Shown: piece by piece, positions 21,750 to 30,559 of the stretch
Layout of the letters: the number at the start of each line of letters is the position of its first letter
How positions within the stretch are numbered: position 1 is the first letter of the stretch
NCBI GenBank assembly: GCA_963675785.1
Contig: OY776562.1
Location: 2,528,001-2,592,000, forward strand
Direction: 5' to 3'
Length of the DNA stretch: 64,000 nt
Origin: Anaerolineae bacterium
GTDB lineage: Bacteria; Chloroflexota; Anaerolineae; UBA1429
Program-made: the position numbers and the translations under genes
The notes under the pieces: generated by a model
Told to the model about the DNA's origin: nothing
Databases searched by the model: none
What the model saw: only the letters and a program-made list of their open reading frames with translations

Positions 21750-23084
21750 TCATACTGTCTCAGCACCTGTATAGCAATCCAGGCCCAATAAAGCGGCGCA
21801 ATAACCGAACGCCCTAGCCCAATCTCCAGGCACAATCACCTGATGGTTGCCCAGTAAATGTTCCACGAAATCGCGCCGTGATGCAAGCCTTACGCGCAAC
21901 TGCGTGCGGCAAGTAGGCTCACTGGCGCCATCCAGCGCCCGCCCAGGGAAAACGCTCAAGGCCGATGAATCGCGACCAAAGCGCACCACCGTCACCTGCT
22001 GCCCCATCCACAGGCCCACCTGTGGGCTCACACCCAGGCCGCTTTCATGATGACTACGCAAACAAAGACACCCGCCGCCATCAGCAGGAGCCACCGGCGC
22101 CGTACAGTGGGCAAAGAGAATAGTATCGTCTCGTCCAATCACCGGATTGGCCATCCATGCCGACTGGCCAGTGAGGGCCTTAGCCAAGGCCAAGGTAACG
22201 GCTGCATCCACGTCCCCCTCACAGGCACCCATGCGATGCGTATAAGCATTGAGTGAGGCCAGCGCCAGACATGCCGTTGAGCTGATATCGCCGATCAGCG
22301 AGAAACAGGCCACCGCCGCGCCGTCAGCATCGTAAAAATCCAGCATTTGCTCAAGGGCCAACTCGATGCAACAGGCCTGCACCACATCCTTTTCATCGGG
22401 CTCAACCACACGTTCAGCGCGTTCAATCCAGTCCTGGGCCCTCAGCAAAGCTTTTTGTGCCTCAACGCGTGTCGCATAATCCTCTAGCACTCGCAATGGC
22501 ACTGTGGTTACGCTCACACCCACCCGTTCGGACAGGCGCCCCAGGTCGCGTTCTGAGCTCTGTACCCAGTTTTCGGGTCCCCCTAGCAACAGCAGGCGCA
22601 ATCTGCGTAGCCGTGCCACCGCTTGCACCGCCAGAGACAACTGCACGAAATCGTTGGCCTGTTCGGCCCAAATGGCCAACTTTTTGCCGCGTTTGAACAG
22701 GCTCCAAACCTCGACTGCTGCTGGCGCGGCGTTGCGAGCCAACGCCAACTGAGAGGCCGAGAGAGAAAGAGGTCCAGGCATATAGGCAGGCAACAGAGCC
22801 ACCGCTTCAAAGCCGCTAGCCGCCTCGATCATCCAGGCCTGCACACCGCCGCTCAGTGGCACCAACAGTGCCGCACCGCCGCCCAAACCCTGCAAATCAT
22901 CTGCCGAGTAAATGAGCGTGGTGGTTACGTCCAGGCCCGCCAACGCTTCTTCAAGCACTTTTTGGACGTGGCCGTAGATGACGGCCAACTCGTCCTTGTC
23001 GGGCCAGTAACGCGGGCTGGCAAAAATCAACACCTTAGCTTGTGTCGTATGCTCCAACGCTCTCATCTCAGGTCCCTGCCACAC
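21750..23084 (-). CDS. Divergent L-fucose/L-arabinose isomerase-like protein
   Basis: 'ACEGDV','FAHCT','LRSHHES','CRTQL','GNHQ' C-terminal FucI/AraA-type motifs. Confidence 0.7.
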   Translation of the reverse strand: MWQGPEMRALEHTTQAKVLIFASPRYWPDKDELAVIYGHVQKVLEEALAGLDVTTTLIYSADDLQGLGGGAALLVPLSGGVQAWMIEAASGFEAVALLPAYMPGPLSLSASQLALARNAAPAAVEVWSLFKRGKKLAIWAEQANDFVQLSLAVQAVARLRRLRLLLLGGPENWVQSSERDLGRLSERVGVSVTTVPLRVLEDYATRVEAQKALLRAQDWIERAERVVEPDEKDVVQACCIELALEQMLDFYDADGAAVACFSLIGDISSTACLALASLNAYTHRMGACEGDVDAAVTLALAKALTGQSAWMANPVIGRDDTILFAHCTAPVAPADGGGCLCLRSHHESGLGVSPQVGLWMGQQVTVVRFGRDSSALSVFPGRALDGASEPTCRTQLRVRLASRRDFVEHLLGNHQVIVPGDWARAFGYCAALLGLDCYTGAETV

Positions 23085-23088
23085 GGCC

Positions 23089-24093
23089 TCATGGCACCAC
23101 TACCGTTTTGATATGGCCGCCCGGCCCGGATTTCAATAACTCTGGGAGTTCTTCCAAGCTAATATGGTTAGTCATCAGCGGCTCGACCTGAATACGCCCC
23201 TCAGCGAGCAAAGCCAGGGCCCGCGCATGGGTAAAGGGATTGATACGCGCGCCGCGAATCGTCAACTCCTTGCGAAACACTTCGTTGGGCTCGATTTCGA
23301 TGGTATGGCCAGGAGGTGTTACCCCAAACCAGACAATGGTCGCCCCAGGAGCCGCCCAAGCTACGGCCTGGCTGGTGGTCACGCGTGAACCCACCGCTTC
23401 CAGCACCACATCGGCACCACCCTGCAGCGTCCCGCCAACCGCCAAAGGATTCTCGTTGAGCGGATCGATCACCACATCAGCGCCAAGCTCAAGGGCCATT
23501 TGCCGCCGCTCAGCCATGGGATCGCTAACCACCACTGGCGCTGCCCCGGCAAAACGCGCCAACTGGGCCAACATCTGGCCAATGGCGCCGCCACCGATCA
23601 CTGCCACCCGATCGCCCGGCACAATGCCCGCCTGCTGAATACCCCGAACGCAACAAGCCAACGGCTCGGTCATGGCGCCAGCAAAAGTGCTCACGCCCTC
23701 TGGCAGCACATAGCACTGCTTGCGCGGCGCCACGCAATACTCGGCAAAGCCGCCATCCACGTCCACACCTAGGGCACGCAAGTTCTCGCACATGTTGATG
23801 CGACCCCGTTGGCAGGATCGGCAAATGCCGCAAGGCATGTTGGGGTCCACGGCAACGCGGTCACCCGGCACAATGTCGGTCACACCCACGCCCACCTCAA
23901 CGACTATGCCAGCATATTCGTGACCAGGCACCACCGGCGGCACGGTGTCGAATTCACCGTGAAAAATATGGTGGTCGGTGCCGCAAACACCGCAGGCCTC
24001 GATCTTGATCAGCACCTCACCAGCCGATGGCTTGGGCGTCGGACGCTCTTCGCAGCGGATATCGTGCAGCCCATAGAATACGCAGGCTTTCAT
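23089..24093 (-). CDS. Zn-dependent medium-chain (sorbitol/threonine-type) dehydrogenase
   Basis: 'CGVCGTD','GHE', CxxCxxC...C structural Zn site, 'GGGAIG'. Confidence 0.9.
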   Translation of the reverse strand: MKACVFYGLHDIRCEERPTPKPSAGEVLIKIEACGVCGTDHHIFHGEFDTVPPVVPGHEYAGIVVEVGVGVTDIVPGDRVAVDPNMPCGICRSCQRGRINMCENLRALGVDVDGGFAEYCVAPRKQCYVLPEGVSTFAGAMTEPLACCVRGIQQAGIVPGDRVAVIGGGAIGQMLAQLARFAGAAPVVVSDPMAERRQMALELGADVVIDPLNENPLAVGGTLQGGADVVLEAVGSRVTTSQAVAWAAPGATIVWFGVTPPGHTIEIEPNEVFRKELTIRGARINPFTHARALALLAEGRIQVEPLMTNHISLEELPELLKSGPGGHIKTVVVP

Positions 24094-24172
24094 TTTTTAC
24101 CTCTCCATTCATTCTCGCAACGTGCCGCCACTATAGCACCCCTTTTACCAGTCGACCAGCCCGCCAAGCAAC

Positions 24173-24201
24173 TTGAGCAGACCGCGAATTGGTGCTAGAA
24201 T
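24173..24201 (+). promoter_or_regulatory. sigma70-type promoter of the ECF/CoA operon
   Basis: TTGAGC-17 nt-TAGAAT with TG extended -10. Confidence 0.7.
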
Positions 24202-24250
24202 AAGTATGTTGGTGACTCGTCGAGCATCAAACGTTGCAATTGCCTGAACA

Positions 24251-24350
24251 ATATTTCGCTTGGATCGTTATACGACCGAGACGATATGAGACAGATGGGG
24301 CCTTGTGCCCAAACGCAGCCTCGTGTCCTCGGTCGACACGGGGTTTTTCT
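24251..24350 (+). ncRNA. pan-motif-like cis-regulatory leader RNA with terminator/antiterminator
   Basis: Hairpin 24256-24284 with bulged A24264 and A24281; terminator stem 24317-24345 with T-tract; CGACCGAG (24273-80) complementary to CTCGGTCG (24328-35). Confidence 0.7.
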
Positions 24351-25190
24351 GTGAGTGACTTTATTCGTATCGAAAATCTGCATTATACCTATGGTGCCGA
24401 TACCGACCATGCGGTCGTTGCTCTACGCGGCATCGACCTATCCATCGCCCAGGGCGAATATATCGCCATCATGGGACATAACGGCTCGGGAAAATCCACA
24501 CTGGCCCGCTGCCTGAATGGCCTGCTGACGCCCACCCAGGGCACAGTTTACGTAGATGGGTTGAATACAGCCGATGAACAAGCCCTATTCGATATTCGCC
24601 GCCGGGTGAGCATGGTGATGCAACACCCAGATAACCAGTTCGTCTCCACTGTGGTAGAGCACGAAGTAGCTTTTGGCCCCGAAAACCTGGGCCTGCCGCG
24701 CGTCGAACTCGTTGAGCGCGTCGACCAGGCTCTGGAACAAACCGGCCTGATCAATCTGCGCCACCGCGACCCGCGTACCCTTTCGGCCGGCCAAAAGGCC
24801 CGGTTGGCTATTGCTGATATGCTGGCCATGCGTCCTGAATACCTCGTCCTCGATGAATCGACCATCTTGTTGGATCCGCTCTCGCGTGAATCCATTCACG
24901 AATTGCTGGCTCAGCTCAACGCCCGCTCTATGGGCATCATCCACATCACTCACCAGGTCGAGGAAGCTGCCGCCGCCAAGCGCATGATCGTGCTGCAACA
25001 GGGCCAAGTGCTGGTGGACGATGCGCCCCTGTCAGCCTTTGCCCAAGCCAGTGAACTCGGGTTGGGTATCGGACAACCTGCCCCCATGGCCCTTGCCGAG
25101 AGATTGCGACAGCGCGGCTTGGCCATCGAGCTGGTGCTGACCACGGCCAACCTAATAACAGCGCTGCAACAAGCGGAGGCCTTGCTATGA
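24351..25190 (+). CDS. ECF transporter ATPase EcfA1
   Basis: 'GHNGSGKST','QHPDNQF','VAFGPENLG','LSAGQK','LVLDE'; GTG start inferred. Confidence 0.9.
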   Translation: MSDFIRIENLHYTYGADTDHAVVALRGIDLSIAQGEYIAIMGHNGSGKSTLARCLNGLLTPTQGTVYVDGLNTADEQALFDIRRRVSMVMQHPDNQFVSTVVEHEVAFGPENLGLPRVELVERVDQALEQTGLINLRHRDPRTLSAGQKARLAIADMLAMRPEYLVLDESTILLDPLSRESIHELLAQLNARSMGIIHITHQVEEAAAAKRMIVLQQGQVLVDDAPLSAFAQASELGLGIGQPAPMALAERLRQRGLAIELVLTTANLITALQQAEALL

Positions 25191-26035
25191 GCCAATCCGC
25201 CATTCAAGTGAGCAATCTGCAGCACATCTACATGCCCGGCACACCAGAGGCCTTTCAAGCACTATACGATGCCTCACTGACGGTGGCCCAGGGCAGCATT
25301 ACCGCCCTAGCCGGCGAAAGCGGCGCGGGCAAATCCACGCTGGCTCTCTATTTATGCGGACTTTTGCGTCCCACCAAGGTCGGACAGGTGCGCATTTTCG
25401 ACCGCGATATGGCCCAAAGCAGCCCGGGGCGTGATGTGGGTCTGGTGTTCCAATATCCCCAGCAACAGCTATTCGAACGTTATGTAGGCGATGATATTGC
25501 CTACGGCCCACGCAAGATGGGTCTCGCTGATACAACCCTCACCGAACGCGTGGGCTGGGCCATGGAGATGGTAGGTCTCGACTTTGAGGCCTTTGTCGAT
25601 CGTGAAACCTTTTCTTTAAGCGGTGGCGAGATGCGGCGTGCAGCGCTGGCCGGCGTACTGGCCATGCAGCCCCACATTCTGGTGCTGGATGAAGCCACTA
25701 CCGGTCTGGATCCCGCTGGGCAGTCGCTTATTCACCGGGTAATGCGCGAGTTGCGCGACAACCTGGGCACCACCGTTTTGCTCATCAGCAATGACATGGA
25801 CGAGATCGCCGAGTTGGCCGACGCCGTGGTGCTCTTGCATCAGGGGCGCACCATCGCCGAGGGTGCACCGCGCGAGGTGCTGGCCGAGGAAACGCGCCTC
25901 AATGCCTGCTCGCTGGTACGACCCACGCCCATGCGCATTCTGGCCGAGGCCGGACGTGCGGGATTTACCGTGAGCCAATCCGCGCTATCGCTCGATGAAG
26001 CCGAGGAAGAGTTATGGCAAGCTTTGCATCGCTAA
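25187..26035 (+). CDS. ECF transporter ATPase EcfA2
   Basis: 'IYMPGTP','GESGAGKST','FQYPQQQLF','LSGGEMRR','LVLDE'; ATGA overlap. Confidence 0.9.
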   Translation: MSQSAIQVSNLQHIYMPGTPEAFQALYDASLTVAQGSITALAGESGAGKSTLALYLCGLLRPTKVGQVRIFDRDMAQSSPGRDVGLVFQYPQQQLFERYVGDDIAYGPRKMGLADTTLTERVGWAMEMVGLDFEAFVDRETFSLSGGEMRRAALAGVLAMQPHILVLDEATTGLDPAGQSLIHRVMRELRDNLGTTVLLISNDMDEIAELADAVVLLHQGRTIAEGAPREVLAEETRLNACSLVRPTPMRILAEAGRAGFTVSQSALSLDEAEEELWQALHR

Positions 26036-26859
26036 GAAACATAAGCATCGGCCAGTACCACCCCGGCGATACAGTCTTTCACTTGCTGGACGCCCGTGTC
26101 AAGCTATCTGCCTTTATCCTGGCTCTGGTGGTTATTGTCATCGCCTCATCCTACAGCGCTAATATCTTGCTACTGGTGCTCTTCTTGGCGGCCATGTATG
26201 CCGCCCGGCTCTCACCCCGTGAGACCCTTGCCAGCCTGGGGCCGGCACTGCCGCTCATCGCTATGTTTGCCCTATTGCAGCTCTTGTTCTACGGCCAAGG
26301 ACCGGCGGAATCGCGCATCGTCCTCGATTGGGGGCCAGTCATCATCTCCACCGCCGGTATTCAGCTGGTCGTTGTCTCGGTGATGAGGTTGTTCAGTTTA
26401 CTATTCGCCACAGCACTACTCACCAACACCACCACCGTATCGGCGTTGACCCAGGGCATGGAACAACTGCTCTCGCCCCTGTCGCGAATCGGCTTGCCCG
26501 GCCACGAACTAGCCATGGTAGGAGCCATCGCCCTGCGCTTTCTGCCCATCTTGGGAGAACAGATGGCCGTCATCTCGCAGGCGCAAATGCTGCGCGGCGT
26601 GGACGAGGAAAGCGGCGGCCGCTGGCGCATTGTGCAAAATGCACGCCGTCTGGCTACGCTCATCGTGCCCCTCTTTGTCGACGCCTATCGACGTTCGGGA
26701 GAGATGACCGAAGCCATGTTGACTCGCTGTTACCGGGGCGGACGCGGACGCACGCATTTGTATGAACCCAAGCTCTCCTCAAGGGACCTGACTTCGTCTC
26801 TAGTATGTCTGGCGTTTTCCGGGATCGTCATTTGGATCGCTTATTCACCGCTACCCTAA
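26014..26859 (+). CDS. ecfT: ECF transporter transmembrane T component
   Basis: 'GQYHPGDT..H.LDARVKL','IALRFLP','AQMLRG','AMLTRCY.GG.GRT'. Confidence 0.9.
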   Translation: MASFASLRNISIGQYHPGDTVFHLLDARVKLSAFILALVVIVIASSYSANILLLVLFLAAMYAARLSPRETLASLGPALPLIAMFALLQLLFYGQGPAESRIVLDWGPVIISTAGIQLVVVSVMRLFSLLFATALLTNTTTVSALTQGMEQLLSPLSRIGLPGHELAMVGAIALRFLPILGEQMAVISQAQMLRGVDEESGGRWRIVQNARRLATLIVPLFVDAYRRSGEMTEAMLTRCYRGGRGRTHLYEPKLSSRDLTSSLVCLAFSGIVIWIAYSPLP

Positions 26860-26873
26860 AAAAGGGGGAATCC

Positions 26874-27605
26874 ATGGTACCCAATCAAAGAGGCGTTCAA
26901 CGCGTGGTAACCGCTGGCCTGTTGCTGGCCATTACCCTACTGCTGACCTTTACTCGCATCGGCATGATCCCAGTGCCTACGCCCGCTGGCAATGCTACTA
27001 TCAGCCATATTCCTGCCATCATCGGCGGCATTTTGGAGGGCCCTCTGGTTGGCCTCATCGTGGGCATGGGCTTTGGCTTTGCCAGTTATGCCACAGCCAC
27101 CACGCCCATGTTCAAAGACCCGCTGGTAGCCGTACTGCCGCGTTTGTTCATCGGTGTGGCTTCTTACTATATGATTGCCCTACTCTACAAGGCCAACCGC
27201 AAAACACTGCAGACCCTAGCCGGCGTATTGTGGGCCCTGCTGCTGGTTTTTTCCTGGCAGATCGGTGGACAGACGCTCTGGTTGGGCATTCTAGTTGCCC
27301 TAGTCTCTACAGCTGCAGCCATTGCCGCGTTTATCTGGCTGCAAAAAGAGGATACGCGCATCGTTGCCCTAGCCATTGCCTCGGTCGTCGGCTCTTTTAC
27401 CAATACCGTGCTCGTTTTGGGCATGGCGGTATTCCGCGCCTATCTCACTGCTGAAGTAGCCTTGGCTGTGGGCCTTGTCCACGGCGTGCCCGAAGCCATT
27501 ATCAGCGCCATTATCACCGTCGCTGTAGTCGCCACGTTGAGGCAGATCAATCGCAAAAAGGCGGGCTCCAAGCTCGTACGCGAAAACAGCAGCACGAATC
27601 AATAA
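26874..27605 (+). CDS. ECF S component, PanT-like (pantothenate/pantetheine by context)
   Basis: 'IPVP...ATISHIPAIIGGILEGP','DPLVAVLPRLFIG','GSFTNTVLVLG','PEAI'. Confidence 0.8.
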   Translation: MVPNQRGVQRVVTAGLLLAITLLLTFTRIGMIPVPTPAGNATISHIPAIIGGILEGPLVGLIVGMGFGFASYATATTPMFKDPLVAVLPRLFIGVASYYMIALLYKANRKTLQTLAGVLWALLLVFSWQIGGQTLWLGILVALVSTAAAIAAFIWLQKEDTRIVALAIASVVGSFTNTVLVLGMAVFRAYLTAEVALAVGLVHGVPEAIISAIITVAVVATLRQINRKKAGSKLVRENSSTNQ

Positions 27606-27621: not shown

Positions 27622-28395
27622 ATGCTTCTCTGTGTAGATGTTGGTAACACCAATACGGTCCTGGGGCTTTACGATGGTGAAGAACTGGTCACCCATTGGC
27701 GCATCAGCACTGACGCCCATCGCATGCCCGATGAGTACGGCATTCAATTGTTGACCCTGGCCGCCAATGCACACATCGAGCTACCCAGCATTGATGGGGC
27801 TATTGTGGCCAGCGTGGTGCCGCCTGTCACTGAATACCTGACTGAGATGATCCACGAATACGTGGGCATCGAGCCGCTGGTAGTGGGAGGCGGTATCCGC
27901 ACCGGCGTGCCTATTCGCTACAGCAGCCCGCAAGAAGTGGGTGCCGACCGCATCGTCAATGCTGTAGCCGCTCACAAACTCTACGGTGGACCGGCCTGCA
28001 TCGTCGATTTCGGTACTGCCACTACCTTTGACGCCCTTTCTGCCAAGGGAGAGTACCTGGGCGGCGCCATCTCGCCGGGCATTCGCCTGGCCGCCGAAGC
28101 CCTTTACGAGCGTACCGCCAAGTTGCCCCGCATCGACCTAAAAGCCCCCGATAAAGCCGTGGGGGCCAACACCATCGACGCCATGCGCTCAGGCATCCTC
28201 TATGGCTATATCGGCCTGGTGGAAGGTATGGTCAAGCGTTTCCGCGCTGAACTGGGCGCCAACATGAAAGTCATTGCCACTGGCGGTTTGGCCGAGGTAG
28301 TGGCTCGTCACACTGATTGCATCGAAGTAGTAGATACCTGGCTAACCCTCAAGGGCCTGCGGTTCATTTATGAGCTGAACGAGGAGGAGCGATGA
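27622..28395 (+). CDS. coaX: Type III pantothenate kinase
   Basis: 'DVGNTN','VGADR','VDFGTATT','GGAISPG','ATGG'. Confidence 0.96.
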   Translation: MLLCVDVGNTNTVLGLYDGEELVTHWRISTDAHRMPDEYGIQLLTLAANAHIELPSIDGAIVASVVPPVTEYLTEMIHEYVGIEPLVVGGGIRTGVPIRYSSPQEVGADRIVNAVAAHKLYGGPACIVDFGTATTFDALSAKGEYLGGAISPGIRLAAEALYERTAKLPRIDLKAPDKAVGANTIDAMRSGILYGYIGLVEGMVKRFRAELGANMKVIATGGLAEVVARHTDCIEVVDTWLTLKGLRFIYELNEEER

Positions 28396-29600
28396 TCCTA
28401 AAAGGAAAGAACGTGGTCCTCGGCGTTACCGGGGGTATTGCCGCCTACAAAGCCGTAGATTTGTGCAGCAAGCTGGTGCAGGCTGGTGCTAACGTGGACG
28501 TCATCATGACGCCCGCCGCTACCAAGTTTGTCACGCCGCTGCCCTTTCAAACCATCTCGCAGAACCCAGTCTCTACCGACATGTTCCAGTTGCTCAAAGA
28601 AACCGATATGGCCCACATCTCCCTCTCGAAAAAAGCGGATGTGATCGTCATTGCCCCGGCAACCGCCAACACCATTGCCAAGCTGGCCCATGGTATGGCC
28701 GATAACCTGCTGACTACCACCGTGCTGGCCTCACCCGCGCCGTTGGTCATTGCCCCGGCCATGGATGCCGACATGTGGGCTAACCCACGCACTCAGGCCA
28801 ACGTGCGCACGCTGGTCGATTCCGGCGTTGCTTTTGTAGGGCCTGGCGAGGGCCGACTGGCTTCGGGGCGCATGGGACGGGGACGGTTGGTCTCCACAGA
28901 AGATATCCTGGCTGCCATGCGCATCAAGCTGGGCGAAAAGGGGCCTCTGGCTGGCCAACAGGTGGTGGTTACCGCCGGTGGCACCCAAGAGCCGCTGGAC
29001 CCCGTGCGTCATCTAGGCAATCGCAGCTCGGGCAAGATGGGTTACGCCCTGGCTATCGCCGCCCGCGATGCTGGCGCCCACGTTACCCTGATCTCGGCGC
29101 CCTGCTGTCTGGAAGCGCCTTACGGCGTCGAGTTTGTGCCTGTACGCACCGCCGCCGAGATGCACCAGGCTGTGCTGGCTCATGCCAATGGCTCAGACAT
29201 CCTGTTCATGGCCGCTGCCGTGGCTGACTACCATCCGGCTGTTGTGTCCGCTGAAAAGATGAAAAAGACGCCGGGCAACCTCATGCTGGAACTGGAGCGC
29301 ACGCCTGACATTCTGGCCAGCGTGGCAGAGATGGGCGTCGCGCGACCGCGCGTGGTGGTGGGTTTTGCCGCCGAAACCGAGAATGTGCTGGCCAACGCCC
29401 AGAGCAAATTGGCGCGCAAAAAACTGGACATGATCGTGGCTAACGATGTATCCGTAGCGGATAGCGGCTTTGGCGTGGACACCAACCGCGTCACCCTACT
29501 GACGCCTGATGGTCAGCAGGAAGAGTTGCCGCTCCTCTCCAAAGAAAAAGTCGCCGAACGCATCATTGCCGCTACCGCCTCGATGGGAGATGGGGCATGA
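28392..29600 (+). CDS. coaBC: Phosphopantothenoylcysteine decarboxylase/synthetase
   Basis: 'GVTGGIAAYKA','APATANTIAK','TAGGTQE.LDPVR..GNRSSGKMG','GFAAET'. Confidence 0.97.
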   Translation: MILKGKNVVLGVTGGIAAYKAVDLCSKLVQAGANVDVIMTPAATKFVTPLPFQTISQNPVSTDMFQLLKETDMAHISLSKKADVIVIAPATANTIAKLAHGMADNLLTTTVLASPAPLVIAPAMDADMWANPRTQANVRTLVDSGVAFVGPGEGRLASGRMGRGRLVSTEDILAAMRIKLGEKGPLAGQQVVVTAGGTQEPLDPVRHLGNRSSGKMGYALAIAARDAGAHVTLISAPCCLEAPYGVEFVPVRTAAEMHQAVLAHANGSDILFMAAAVADYHPAVVSAEKMKKTPGNLMLELERTPDILASVAEMGVARPRVVVGFAAETENVLANAQSKLARKKLDMIVANDVSVADSGFGVDTNRVTLLTPDGQQEELPLLSKEKVAERIIAATASMGDGA

Positions 29601-30559
29601 AACCAAGATATGCGGGCTCGATCACCGATGTGACCGGCATTACCGTGGGGCAAGCGCAAAATCTCGAGGCAGGCACCGGCTGCACAGTAGTGCTGGCTGA
29701 TGGTGGCGCTATTGCTGGTGGTTCAGTGCGCGGCCTCTCCCCTGGCACCCGCGAAACCGACCTTCTGCGCCCTGGCACGTTGGTACAAAAGGCCAATGCC
29801 ATCCTGCTCACCGGAGGCAGCGCCTTTGGCCTGGCTGCTGCTGATGGCGTGATGCGCTATTTGGAAGAGCATGATCTGGGCCACGATACCGGCGTCGCAA
29901 AGGTGCCCATTGTGCCCGGTGCGGTGCTGTTCGATCTGGCCGTGGGCCAGGCCTCCATTCGCCCCGACGCTGCTATGGGCTATCTGGCTTGCCAGAACGC
30001 TTCAGTCGCCATTCCCGCCATGGGTAATGTAGGGGCTGGAACGGGTGCTAGTGTGGGCAAATTGCTGGGCATGAACCGCGCTTACAAGGCGGGCATTGGC
30101 ACAGCCAGCATTAGCGCCGGAGGATTGGTGGTGGGCGCCATTGTTGCTACCAATGCTTTTGGCGATGTCATCGACCCCGAAAACGGCACCATCCTGGCGG
30201 GCACGCGTAAAGCCGTGGGTTCAGGCTTTGCCGATACCGCTCAGGCCATGCGCTCGATGGTCGTGCGCAATGTGTTAGCACGCACCAACACGGTTATTGG
30301 CGTCATTGCCACCAATGCCGATCTCGATGTAGCCCAAACCAACGAAGTATCCGCCGCAGCTCACGACGGTCTGGCGAGGGTCATCCGCCCCTCGCATACG
30401 CTCTACGATGGCGATACCCTATTTGCCCTTTCCACATGCGAGATCAAGACCAACCTGGCGTTGGTGGCCGATATGGCCGCCGAGGCAACCGCCAAGGCCA
30501 TCATCAACGGCATACTGGCCGCCGAGGCCGCTTATGGATTGCCAGCCGTCAACAAGTAA
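29597..30559 (+). CDS. P1/S58 (DmpA/ThnT-like) peptidase/amidohydrolase
   Basis: 'ITDV.GI.VG','PGTRETDLL','LTGGSAFGL','GNVGAGTG','NTVIGVIATNA','HTLYDGDT'; ATGA overlap with coaBC. Confidence 0.88.
   Translation: MKPRYAGSITDVTGITVGQAQNLEAGTGCTVVLADGGAIAGGSVRGLSPGTRETDLLRPGTLVQKANAILLTGGSAFGLAAADGVMRYLEEHDLGHDTGVAKVPIVPGAVLFDLAVGQASIRPDAAMGYLACQNASVAIPAMGNVGAGTGASVGKLLGMNRAYKAGIGTASISAGGLVVGAIVATNAFGDVIDPENGTILAGTRKAVGSGFADTAQAMRSMVVRNVLARTNTVIGVIATNADLDVAQTNEVSAAAHDGLARVIRPSHTLYDGDTLFALSTCEIKTNLALVADMAAEATAKAIINGILAAEAAYGLPAVNK

What the first reader, a model, noticed from the sequence alone, without database searches (positions are those of the whole stretch)
24173..24353. pan-motif-like leader RNA wired into a complete three-way attenuator controlling CoA-precursor uptake and CoA synthesis
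Seen: promoter TTGAGC-17-TAGAAT, then a ~140-nt leader. Hairpin A (24256-24284): UCG-CUUGG-[A]-UCGU-uau-ACGA-CCGAG-[A]-CGA, a stem with one bulged A on each strand. Hairpin T (24317-24345): AGCCUCGUGUC-cucgguc-GACACGGGGUU then UUUCU, directly before the GTG of ecfA1, also burying the only G-rich SD-like stretch. The 3' arm of A (CGACCGAG) is exactly complementary to the loop/3' base of T (CUCGGUCG) and can extend into T's 5' arm, giving a mutually exclusive antiterminator. Known: the computationally found 'pan' RNA motif (Chloroflexi, Firmicutes, deltaproteobacteria) is a stem with bulged adenosines upstream of pantothenate genes, with no established mechanism that I know of. Inference: stabilising hairpin A (protein or metabolite, high pantothenate/CoA) frees T and switches the operon off. 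This gives an explicit mechanism and extends the regulon to ECF-PanT, coaX and coaBC; CoaX or CoaBC are candidate binders.
Basis: partly seen in the sequence, partly recalled or inferred. Interest (0 to 1): 0.85.

Follow-up and report, generated by a model that had tools for sequence, protein, structure and literature searches.

The report
Pan RNA attenuator controlling pantothenate uptake
A known but still unexplained regulatory RNA, the pan motif, sits in front of genes that import vitamin B5 and begin coenzyme A synthesis, and its sequence reads as an on/off switch built around a transcription terminator.

Summary
Window 24207-24288 (+) matches Rfam pan (RF01749) over the whole model, just above its gathering score (36.9 vs 36.2 bits). 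It is a complete tandem pan RNA.

A sigma-70-like promoter precedes it and an intrinsic terminator (T, 24317-24345) follows, abutting the GTG of ecfA. The hp2 3' arm and flank can form a 16-bp antiterminator with T's 5' arm and loop.

Across 139 related leaders from many phyla, pan-linked terminators complement the hp2 3' arm far better than generic terminators or shuffles. Terminator-less leaders tend to place the ribosome-binding site inside hp2. Both designs imply that hp2 held closed means OFF.

The genome lacks panB, panC, panD and DUF2520, so pan here controls salvage: ECF transporter, the only coaX, coaBC and a ThnT-like S58 amidase. The same gene contexts recur elsewhere.

The exact antiterminator register is not conserved in the nearest relatives. 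I found no expression data, and the effector (protein or metabolite) is unknown. I found no published mechanism. It is a new member of a known family, with a newly readable expression platform and a wider regulon.

The parts
24173..24201 (+). sigma-70-like promoter: -35 TTGAGC (24173-24178), 17-nt spacer with TG, -10 TAGAAT (24196-24201)
   Evidence: In relatives, 45 of 72 hp1-bearing leaders have a promoter scoring at least 9 of 12 in the 48 nt upstream, against 3% of shuffles. The -10 ends 6-8 nt before hp1 in 37 of those 45. In the window the gap is 6 nt.
   Evidence: cmscan alignment to RF01749 positions 1-28. In relatives, 5 of 8 pairs show compensatory changes and 97% of cells are paired.
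   Evidence: -11.5 kcal/mol alone. The core is invariant in 18 of 19 relatives found with the Rfam model. The exact 20-nt core occurs in more than 120 genome contigs.
24273..24335 (+). antiterminator (regions 2:3): 24273-24280 pairs with 24328-24335 and 24283-24290 pairs with 24320-24327; a small hairpin (24298-24310) is nested inside
   Evidence: It is the minimum-energy structure of the transcript ending at 24335: -40.1 kcal/mol, against -35.1 with hp2 enforced. 0 of 40 shuffles did as well.
24317..24350 (+). intrinsic terminator T (regions 3:4): stem 24317-24345, loop 24328-24334, U-tract to 24350. Its 3' arm holds the only G-rich SD-like stretch (GGGG, 24340-24343).
   Evidence: T alone is -16 kcal/mol. 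At full length, hp2+T is -45.9 against -40.7 kcal/mol for the antiterminator.
24351..25190 (+). ecfA (ECF transporter ATPase 1), GTG start
   Evidence: Pfam ABC_tran. The best NCBIfam model is TIGR04520 ECF_ATPase_1, scoring below its cut-off.
25187..26035 (+). ecfA' (ECF transporter ATPase 2)
26014..26859 (+). ecfT (CbiQ family T component)
   Evidence: It is one of 5 CbiQ-family genes in the genome.
26805..27605 (+). ECF S component, PanT-like by context and by weak similarity
   Evidence: Pfam ECF_trnsprt. The best solved-structure hit is 4rfs chain S at E 8.4e-5. No NCBIfam hit.
27622..28395 (+). coaX (type III pantothenate kinase), the only copy in the genome
28392..29600 (+). coaBC
   Evidence: TIGR00521 scores 458 bits, above its cut-off.
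29597..30559 (+). S58 (DmpA/ThnT-like) self-processing amidase, last gene of the operon
   Evidence: Solved-structure hits include ThnT at E 1.3e-43. The family recurs downstream of pan in 14 other loci.

Best explanation
The leader 24207-24350 is a genuine tandem pan RNA (Rfam RF01749) joined to a classical four-region transcription attenuator. Regions 1:2 are pan hairpin 2, regions 2:3 are an antiterminator, and regions 3:4 are an intrinsic terminator that also hides the ribosome-binding site of ecfA.

When hp2 is not held closed, its 3' arm and flank are captured by the newly made 5' arm and loop of T. The terminator then cannot form and the operon is transcribed. When a signal of pantothenate/CoA sufficiency holds hp2 closed (probably together with hp1), T forms, transcription stops before ecfA, and any read-through mRNA has its SD buried.

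The organism cannot make pantothenate. The switch therefore sets uptake (ECF-PanT-like transporter), the only pantothenate kinase (CoaX), CoaBC and a ThnT-like amidase.

Shown by computation: family membership, the alternative structures and their energies, family-wide enrichment of the complementarity, and the gene contexts.

Inferred: the direction of regulation, termination in vivo, and the nature of the signal. The effector is unknown. I rate a direct metabolite and a protein about equally likely. Because coaX and coaBC are in the regulon while coaD and coaE are not, the signal is more likely a product beyond CoaBC (4'-phosphopantetheine, dephospho-CoA or CoA) than pantothenate itself.
For: 1. 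Membership. RF01749 matches at 36.9 bits over model positions 1-92 and is the only hit in the genome. The four bulged As are invariant in 19 of 19 relatives found with the Rfam model. 93.8% of cells pair, against 28-43% when the partner is slid, and 12 of 22 pairs show changes on both sides.

2. Promoter. It is placed as in relatives.

3. The switch in the window. For a transcript ending at 24335, the antiterminator state is -40.1 and the best hp2-keeping state is -35.1 kcal/mol. At full length, hp2+T is -45.9 and the antiterminator is -40.7.

4. Complementarity is beyond chance in the window: 3 of 100 shuffles and 0 of 40 shuffles were as good.

5. Family level. 105 of 139 leaders have a hairpin plus U-tract within 260 nt.
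- For 92 distinct terminators, the duplex energy with the hp2 3' arm averages -12.5 kcal/mol, against -9.2 for shuffles, -10.4 for the reversed arm and -7.3 for T's 3' arm. In 33% of them at most 5 of 100 shuffles were as good.
- 76 pan-linked terminators average -12.1, against -7.3 kcal/mol for 112 generic terminators from the same loci of equal GC and length. 50% against 6% reach -12.

6. Independent design with the same polarity. Among leaders without a nearby terminator, 18 of 42 carry an SD-like tract in the apex of hp2, against 6 of 92 with a terminator. Several start codons lie 0-17 nt after hp2.

7. Context.
- The first downstream ORFs of 132 leaders are DUF2520 44, PanB 27, ABC_tran 24, S58 12, PanC 7, PanD 1, CoaX 1.
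- EcfA lies downstream in 29 of 139 loci, CoaX in 15, CoaBC in 3 and S58 in 14. The full seven-gene order is found in L021 and L069.
- CoaD and CoaE were never found downstream.

8. The genome has no PanB, PanC, PanD or DUF2520 and a single CoaX.
Against: - The Rfam score is only 0.7 bits above the gathering score.
- The closest relatives do not show the same antiterminator. In genus g8 (L007, L008, L014, L017) 6, 37, 26 and 28 of 100 shuffles were as good, and in L016 54 of 100. In all five, none of T's 5' arm pairs with the hp2 3' arm in the truncated-transcript fold.
- Among the 23 ECF-type leaders with a terminator, only 5 reach 5 or fewer of 100 shuffles (rows, classes).
- The signal is strongest in one group, the S58-first operons: 10 of 10 (crude motif classes).
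- The antiterminator flank shows no significant covariation (70% paired against 61% permuted, P 0.06).
- The folding test over all leaders is weak (5.9 against 4.4 nt).
- Leaders are related to one another, so the P values overstate independence. L020-L139 were chosen by an exact hp2 pattern.
- No RNA data were available.
- coaX and coaBC are single-copy and essential, so the terminator must be leaky or bypassed.
- Whether such terminators work in this phylum was not tested.
Confidence: 0.6

Rival explanations
1. Control is translational only. T is mainly an SD-sequestering hairpin. hp2 and the antiterminator decide whether GGGG (24340-24343) and GTG 24351 are accessible, and little or no premature termination occurs.
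For: The SD-like GGGG lies in T's 3' arm and the U-tract abuts the start codon. Many pan leaders in other phyla have no terminator and place the SD inside hp2.
Against: T has an 11-bp GC-rich stem followed by TTTTTCT, the form of an intrinsic terminator. In relatives the terminator is followed by a separate SD 20-60 nt further on, so there it cannot act by sequestration.
Confidence: 0.15
2. The complementarity between hp2 and T is incidental. The pan hairpins bind a factor that acts in another way (roadblock, RNA stability, recruitment of a termination factor), and T is a constitutive partial terminator.
For: The nearest relatives lack a significant antiterminator in the same register. There is no flank covariation. 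hp2 is invariant, so the complement in T is sequence conservation rather than covariation.
Against: Pan-linked terminators complement the hp2 3' arm much better than 112 generic terminators do and better than shuffles. The 16-bp helix in the window beat all 40 shuffles. Truncated-transcript energies give a balanced switch.
Confidence: 0.15
3. The effector is a pathway enzyme encoded in the operon (CoaX or CoaBC). It would bind the two quasi-symmetric bulged-A hairpins as a dimer.
For: Weinberg et al. 2010 judged the tandem simple stems suggestive of a dimeric protein (PMC2864571, passage read). Each stem is pseudo-two-fold: C-N3-G-A on both strands. CoaX lies in 15 other pan-led operons.
Against: Most pan-led operons in the set do not contain coaX or coaBC within the DNA held. 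No RNA-binding domain was found in either protein.
Confidence: 0.1
4. The polarity is reversed. The bound form of hp2 is the ON state, induced under starvation.
For: None from the sequence. It cannot be excluded without expression data.
Against: A closed hp2 frees T in the window. In terminator-less leaders a closed hp2 buries the SD or abuts the start codon. Both designs make closed hp2 the OFF state.
Confidence: 0.05

Closest known systems
pan motif, Rfam RF01749 (Weinberg et al. 2010, Genome Biol 11:R31; PMC2864571, pan passage read)
   Same: Tandem stems, each with two conserved bulged As. The full-length model match is above the gathering score. It lies in the 5' leader of pantothenate-pathway genes and in Chloroflexota, one of the three phyla originally named.
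   Different: Here it heads a salvage operon (ECF transporter, coaX, coaBC, S58 amidase) in a genome without panB, panC or panD. The paper's text names only panB, panC and aspartate decarboxylase, and I could not see its supplement. An explicit terminator/antiterminator platform can be read here; the paper's text gives no mechanism.
PyrR-type attenuation of the pyr operon in Bacillus
   Same: The logic has three alternative helices: a sensor hairpin acting as anti-antiterminator, an antiterminator and a terminator. Stabilising the sensor hairpin switches transcription off.
   Different: PyrR is a known protein with a known binding loop. For pan the effector is unknown, the sensor is a bulged-A stem, and a second similar hairpin lies upstream.
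NAD+-I riboswitch (nadA motif; PMC6859854, abstract and passages read)
   Same: Two similar tandem stem-bulge domains lie upstream of a cofactor-synthesis gene, with the expression platform attached to the second domain. It was first judged only marginal as a riboswitch candidate. Its ligand carries an ADP moiety, as CoA does.
   Different: There is no sequence or model similarity (only pan matched). nadA has internal bulges of conserved bases, not single bulged As. Ligand binding is shown for nadA and not for pan.
RAT hairpins bound by LicT/SacY/BglG-type antiterminators (recalled)
   Same: A short quasi-symmetric hairpin with bulged adenosines is recognised by a protein dimer and competes with a terminator.
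   Different: In RAT the bound hairpin is itself the antiterminator (ON). Here the bound hairpin would free the terminator (OFF). No such protein is encoded nearby.
ECF-PanT pantothenate transporter (solved structure 4rfs; L. brevis PanT as cited in PMC12570885, passage read)
   Same: EcfA-EcfA'-EcfT plus an S component, next to CoA-pathway genes.
   Different: The S component is only weakly similar (E 8.4e-5). The module is encoded with its S component in a single operon, and the genome has four other EcfT genes. The substrate is untested.

Membership tests
pan motif (Rfam RF01749) | Covariance-model score at or above the curated gathering score, over the full model | tested here: met
   36.9 bits against 36.2, model positions 1-92 of 92, E 1.2e-4 for the whole genome. 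The margin is only 0.7 bits.
pan motif (Rfam RF01749) | [quoted passage not shown] | tested here: met
   hp1 has A24215 and A24230; hp2 has A24264 and A24281. All four columns are invariant in 19 of 19 relatives.
pan motif (Rfam RF01749) | Tandem arrangement of two such stems (true of most members) | tested here: met
   hp1 24207-24233 and hp2 24256-24284. An hp1-like stem lies upstream of hp2 in 105 of 138 leaders; the finder's false-positive rate in shuffles is 22%.
pan motif (Rfam RF01749) | Base pairing supported by covariation | tested here: met
   On a MAFFT alignment of 19 hits found with the Rfam model, 93.8% of cells pair against 28-43% when slid. In hp1, 5 of 8 pairs have changes on both sides; in hp2, 7 of 14.
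pan motif (Rfam RF01749) | Located upstream of operons with panB, panC or aspartate decarboxylase | tested here: not met
   The operon holds ecfAA'T, an S component, coaX, coaBC and S58. The genome has no PanB, PanC or PanD hit. The same RNA precedes panB, panC and panD in other genomes, so the pathway link holds even though the literal gene list does not.
Terminator/antiterminator attenuator | Intrinsic terminator between the promoter and the first gene | tested here: met
   24317-24345 plus a U-tract. 105 of 139 related leaders have one within 260 nt.
Terminator/antiterminator attenuator | Alternative helix that excludes both the sensor hairpin and the terminator, with competitive energy | tested here: met
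   A 16-bp helix. It is 5 kcal/mol better than the hp2 state before T's 3' arm is made, and 5 kcal/mol worse than hp2+T afterwards.
Terminator/antiterminator attenuator | Conservation of the alternative pairing in relatives | tested here: inconclusive
   Enriched family-wide. Not recovered in the nearest genus g8 or in L016. No flank covariation.
Terminator/antiterminator attenuator | Regulated 3' end in vivo or in vitro | not testable with these tools
   No RNA run is listed for this stretch.
Riboswitch (direct metabolite sensor) | Selective binding of a small molecule by the RNA alone | not testable with these tools
   Reviews from 2022 state that no CoA riboswitch is known (PMC9971707 and PMC10043782, passages read). 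A search on six riboswitch phrases found no paper reporting a pan ligand.
ECF-PanT transporter | S component of the PanT family | tested here: inconclusive
   Pfam ECF_trnsprt only, no NCBIfam model, and a weak hit to 4rfs chain S at E 8.4e-5. The assignment rests mainly on context.

The most novel reading that the evidence does not exclude
The pan RNA is not a protein-binding site but a direct metabolite sensor for a late CoA-pathway product (4'-phosphopantetheine, dephospho-CoA or CoA). That would make it the cofactor riboswitch reviews list as conspicuously missing. Its tandem stem-bulge architecture would work like the NAD+-I riboswitch, with hp2 as the switching domain.

In CoaX-type bacteria, whose pantothenate kinase is not feedback-inhibited by CoA, this RNA would be the main feedback on CoA supply. 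It would govern synthesis, uptake and salvage alike.
Probability: 0.25. Interest if true: 0.9.

Novelty: new member of a known kind. Interest (0 to 1): 0.6.

Why it matters
The pan motif has been an orphan since 2010. In the papers I could search I found no mechanism, effector or regulon beyond panB, panC and panD.

This leader, read with about 140 relatives, gives three testable things.
- **A defined switch.** The sensor hairpin, antiterminator and terminator have coordinates and a predicted polarity, and translational variants in other phyla give a second, independent route to the same polarity.
- **A wider regulon.** It covers an ECF transporter, coaX, coaBC, a DUF2520 reductase and a ThnT-like amidase. 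That argues the signal is a late pathway product rather than pantothenate.
- **A link to an open question.** A 2025 review states that type II and III pantothenate kinases lack the CoA feedback seen in type I (PMC12570885, passage read). Two 2022 reviews stress that no CoA riboswitch is known. If pan senses CoA status, directly or through a protein, it would supply that missing control in many phyla.

For this organism, a pantothenate auxotroph, the switch governs its only route to CoA.

Tried and rejected
- **RNA evidence.** No RNA holder is listed for 24100-25100.
- **Folding test across all leaders.** In truncated-transcript folds, T's 5' arm paired to the hp2 3' arm at 5.9 nt against 4.4 nt in shuffles. 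The power is low and I did not rely on it.
- **Covariation in the antiterminator flank.** Tested on 27 leaders with a CC-Y-UCU-Y core; not significant.
- **Gene classes.** The motif-based classes are crude (many EcfA leaders fell into 'other'). I used them only to show that the signal is uneven.
- **Literature.** Six searches and a whole-word check of PMC3766115 ('pan' does not occur) found no mechanism or wider regulon. The B. subtilis CoA paper PMC11487621 has no occurrence of 'riboswitch', 'RNA motif', 'pan motif', 'terminator' or 'RNA switch'. Two papers were not held, and PMC7266159 does not mention pan. Supplements are closed, and Additional File 6 of Weinberg 2010 may show terminators or further genes.
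- **Rejected readings.** T cannot be the terminator of the upstream gene, because that gene (23089-24093) is on the other strand. The ORFs 24234-25190 and 24195-24410 that cross the leader are mechanical only.
Full report
**What is there.** The intergenic region between a minus-strand zinc alcohol dehydrogenase gene (23089-24093) and a plus-strand operon holds several elements.
- A sigma-70-like promoter: TTGAGC, 17 nt with TG, TAGAAT, at 24173-24201. It scores 9 of 12.
- A leader of about 143 nt.
- A GTG at 24351 that opens ecfA.

The Rfam scan of the whole window gave a single hit. It was pan (RF01749) at 24207-24288 on the plus strand, at 36.9 bits against a gathering score of 36.2, covering all 92 model positions. 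It is also the only pan hit in the 3.2-Mb single-contig genome (E 1.2e-4).

The alignment shows two hairpins. hp1 is at 24207-24233 with bulged A24215 and A24230. hp2 is at 24256-24284 with bulged A24264 and A24281.

**The terminator and the alternative helix.** T (24317-24345) has 11 pairs and a 7-nt loop and is followed by TTTTTCT. It is the one long terminator-like site in 23800-24700. Its 3' arm contains the only G-rich SD-like stretch (24340-24343), seven bases before the GTG.

It continues after a 2-nt bulge as 24283-24290 against 24320-24327. That makes 16 bp, which take up 8 of the 11 bases of T's 5' arm, the whole loop and the first base of the 3' arm.

| Transcript | Antiterminator state | hp2-keeping state |
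|---|---|---|
| Ending at 24335, before T's 3' arm exists | -40.1 kcal/mol (the minimum-energy fold) | -35.1 kcal/mol |
| Full length | -40.7 kcal/mol | -45.9 kcal/mol (hp2+T) |

This is the balance expected of a kinetic switch: whatever holds hp2 closed during transcription lets T form. The complementarity exceeds chance. 3 of 100 shuffles of T's 5' arm plus loop were as good by duplex energy, and 0 of 40 were as good in a folding test.

**Relatives.** The Rfam model found pan in 19 of 61 genomes of the same family and class, including the window's own.

On a MAFFT alignment of those 19, the four bulged As are invariant. 93.8% of cells pair, against 28-43% when the partner is slid. Compensatory changes occur at 5 of 8 hp1 pairs and 7 of 14 hp2 pairs. 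The hp2 core is identical in 18 of 19.

By my arithmetic, about 9 chance matches would be expected.

The record titles name these groups:
- Chloroflexota (Dehalococcoidia, Anaerolineae, Chloroflexia);
- Dormibacterota;
- delta-proteobacterial and Desulfobacterota groups;
- Myxococcota, Planctomycetota, Acidobacteriota and Binatia;
- spirochaetes;
- Bacillota (Clostridia, Veillonellaceae and others);
- single Aquificales, Nanopelagicaceae and Patescibacteria bins.

Labels of metagenome bins can be wrong. Three contigs were fetched twice (L008=L021, L009=L069, L002=L082).

**Is the attenuator a family feature?** 105 of 139 leaders have a hairpin plus U-tract within 260 nt.

For 92 distinct terminators within 95 nt, I computed the duplex energy between the hp2 3' arm plus 4 nt and T's 5' arm plus loop.

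| Comparison | Mean energy (kcal/mol) |
|---|---|
| Real hp2 3' arm against T's 5' arm plus loop | -12.5 |
| Shuffled T 5' arm plus loop | -9.2 |
| Reversed hp2 arm | -10.4 |
| T's 3' arm as target | -7.3 |

In 33% of these leaders, at most 5 of 100 shuffles were as good.

A more natural control used generic terminators from elsewhere in the same loci, of equal length and GC. 76 pan-linked terminators averaged -12.1 kcal/mol against -7.3 for 112 generic ones. 50% against 6% reached -12 kcal/mol.

Many Dehalococcoidia-type terminators carry UCUCGG in the 5' arm, the complement of part of the hp2 3' arm. This 6-mer is found in 14% of pan-linked terminators against 1% of generic ones.

**Results against this reading.**
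- The signal is uneven. It is strongest in S58-first operons (10 of 10).
- It is modest in ECF-type leaders. Only 5 of 23 reach 5 or fewer of 100 shuffles.
- It is absent in the nearest genus g8 and in L016, where other pairings appear.
- A test for covariation in the flank of the helix was not significant.
- Leaders share ancestry, so the P values overstate independence.

**A second design with the same polarity.** 42 leaders lack a nearby terminator. 18 of them carry an SD-like purine tract in the apex of hp2, against 6 of 92 with a terminator. In several the start codon lies 0-17 nt after hp2. In Dormibacterota-labelled contigs, the GTG that opens the DUF2520 gene begins with the last base of hp2. 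A closed hp2 therefore means OFF in both designs. This is inference from sequence, not measurement.

**Genes under control.** The operon contains ecfA, ecfA', ecfT, an ECF S component, coaX, coaBC and an S58 peptidase-family gene. The S component's best solved-structure match is 4rfs chain S, at E 8.4e-5. It is PanT-like mainly by context.

The genome is 94.8% complete by markers and lies in one contig. It has no hit to PanB, PanC, PanD or DUF2520. It has one CoaX and five EcfT-family genes, and its coaD and coaE lie elsewhere. It therefore looks like a pantothenate auxotroph whose only route to 4'-phosphopantetheine lies behind this leader.

This context is not peculiar to the window. The first ORFs after 132 leaders fall into these families:

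| Family of first downstream ORF | Count (of 132) |
|---|---|
| DUF2520 with a Rossmann domain | 44 |
| PanB | 27 |
| ABC_tran | 24 |
| S58 | 12 |
| PanC | 7 |
| SBP_bac_5 | 2 |
| PanD | 1 |
| CoaX | 1 |
| ECF S component | 1 |

I recall DUF2520 as the PanG type of ketopantoate reductase; I did not check this.

By tblastn against the 139 loci, EcfA lies downstream in 29, CoaX in 15, CoaBC in 3 and S58 in 14. The full seven-gene order is present in L021 and L069, and ECF operons are present in four spirochaete-labelled contigs. CoaD and CoaE were never found downstream in the DNA held.

coaX and coaBC use pantothenate, so repressing them in response to pantothenate would make little sense. The regulon therefore points to a later product as the signal. 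This is inference.

**Comparison with what is known.** Weinberg et al. 2010 describe pan in one paragraph: a stem with two conserved bulged As, mostly tandem, suggestive of a dimeric protein, upstream of panB, panC or aspartate decarboxylase, in three phyla (PMC2864571, passage read).

Two transcriptome papers only list it (PMC4342826 and PMC4634765, passages read). Two 2022 reviews say no CoA riboswitch is known (PMC9971707 and PMC10043782, passages read). In the passages I read, a 2024 B. subtilis CoA paper and a 2025 CoA review do not mention riboswitch control. The review states that type II and III pantothenate kinases lack the CoA feedback seen in type I.

I found no paper giving a mechanism, an effector or the wider regulon. 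Supplements were closed and may hold more.

Functionally, the layout resembles PyrR-type attenuation (recalled). Architecturally, the nearest riboswitch precedent is the NAD+-I (nadA) tandem stem-bulge RNA (PMC6859854, passages read).

**Verdict.** The element is a member of the known pan family, with one literal criterion (panB, panC or panD downstream) not met but the pathway link intact.

The three-way attenuator is well supported in the window and statistically supported across the family. It is not conserved in register among the closest relatives and is untested in vivo. The effector is open, and nothing here supports CoaX or CoaBC specifically.

My confidence in the attenuator model is 0.6. 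Novelty: a new member of a known kind, with a new readable mechanism and regulon. Interest 0.6.

Noticed in passing
window 29597-30559 (+); also L021, L022, L024, L031, L057, L063, L064, L067, L069, L077, L096, L109, L116, L137: An S58 (DmpA-family) self-processing amidase is a recurrent member of the pan regulon. It is the last gene of the ECF-coaX-coaBC operon here. Elsewhere it is the first gene of operons that contain DUF2520, PanD, PanB and PanC genes.

Its solved relatives include ThnT at E 1.3e-43. Passages I read call ThnT a pantetheine hydrolase (10.1101/2023.03.12.532270; PMC6097109). A review passage says CoaX-type kinases do not phosphorylate pantetheine (PMC12570885). The protein may therefore be a bacterial pantetheinase that feeds salvage. 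This is a hypothesis and is untested.
   Followed up: partly
L020-L139: The exact 20-base hp2 core occurs in more than 120 species genomes. Their record titles span about a dozen phylum-level labels, far more than the three phyla named in 2010. hp1 varies freely with covariation, while the hp2 core is nearly invariant.
   Followed up: partly
L046, L076, L084, L085, L110, L123, L126, L128 and similar: In high-GC contigs labelled Dormibacterota there is no terminator. An AGGAGG-like SD lies in the hp2 apex, and the GTG start of a DUF2520 gene begins with the last base of hp2. This is a purely translational version of the switch.
   Followed up: partly
first ORFs of 44 of 132 leaders (A1): The commonest gene directly after pan is a Rossmann plus DUF2520 protein. 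I recall this family as the PanG type of ketopantoate reductase but did not check it. The 2010 text does not list it.
   Followed up: no
whole genome G000: The genome has no PanB, PanC, PanD or DUF2520 hit, and its only CoaX lies behind the terminator. Essential single-copy genes under an attenuator imply leaky termination or an internal promoter.

The genome has five EcfT-family genes. One ECF module ends about 800 bp before the window starts, at genome positions 2524271-2527180.
   Followed up: no
L007, L008, L014, L017, L021 (genus g8): These close relatives share a conserved hp2 loop and a linker helix (ACGGAAG with CUUCCGU) that overlaps the base of hp2 and abuts the terminator. They may use a different alternative pairing from the window.
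   Followed up: partly
window 21750-23084 (-): A 444-aa ORF upstream of the alcohol dehydrogenase gene has no Pfam family at E 0.001.
   Followed up: no
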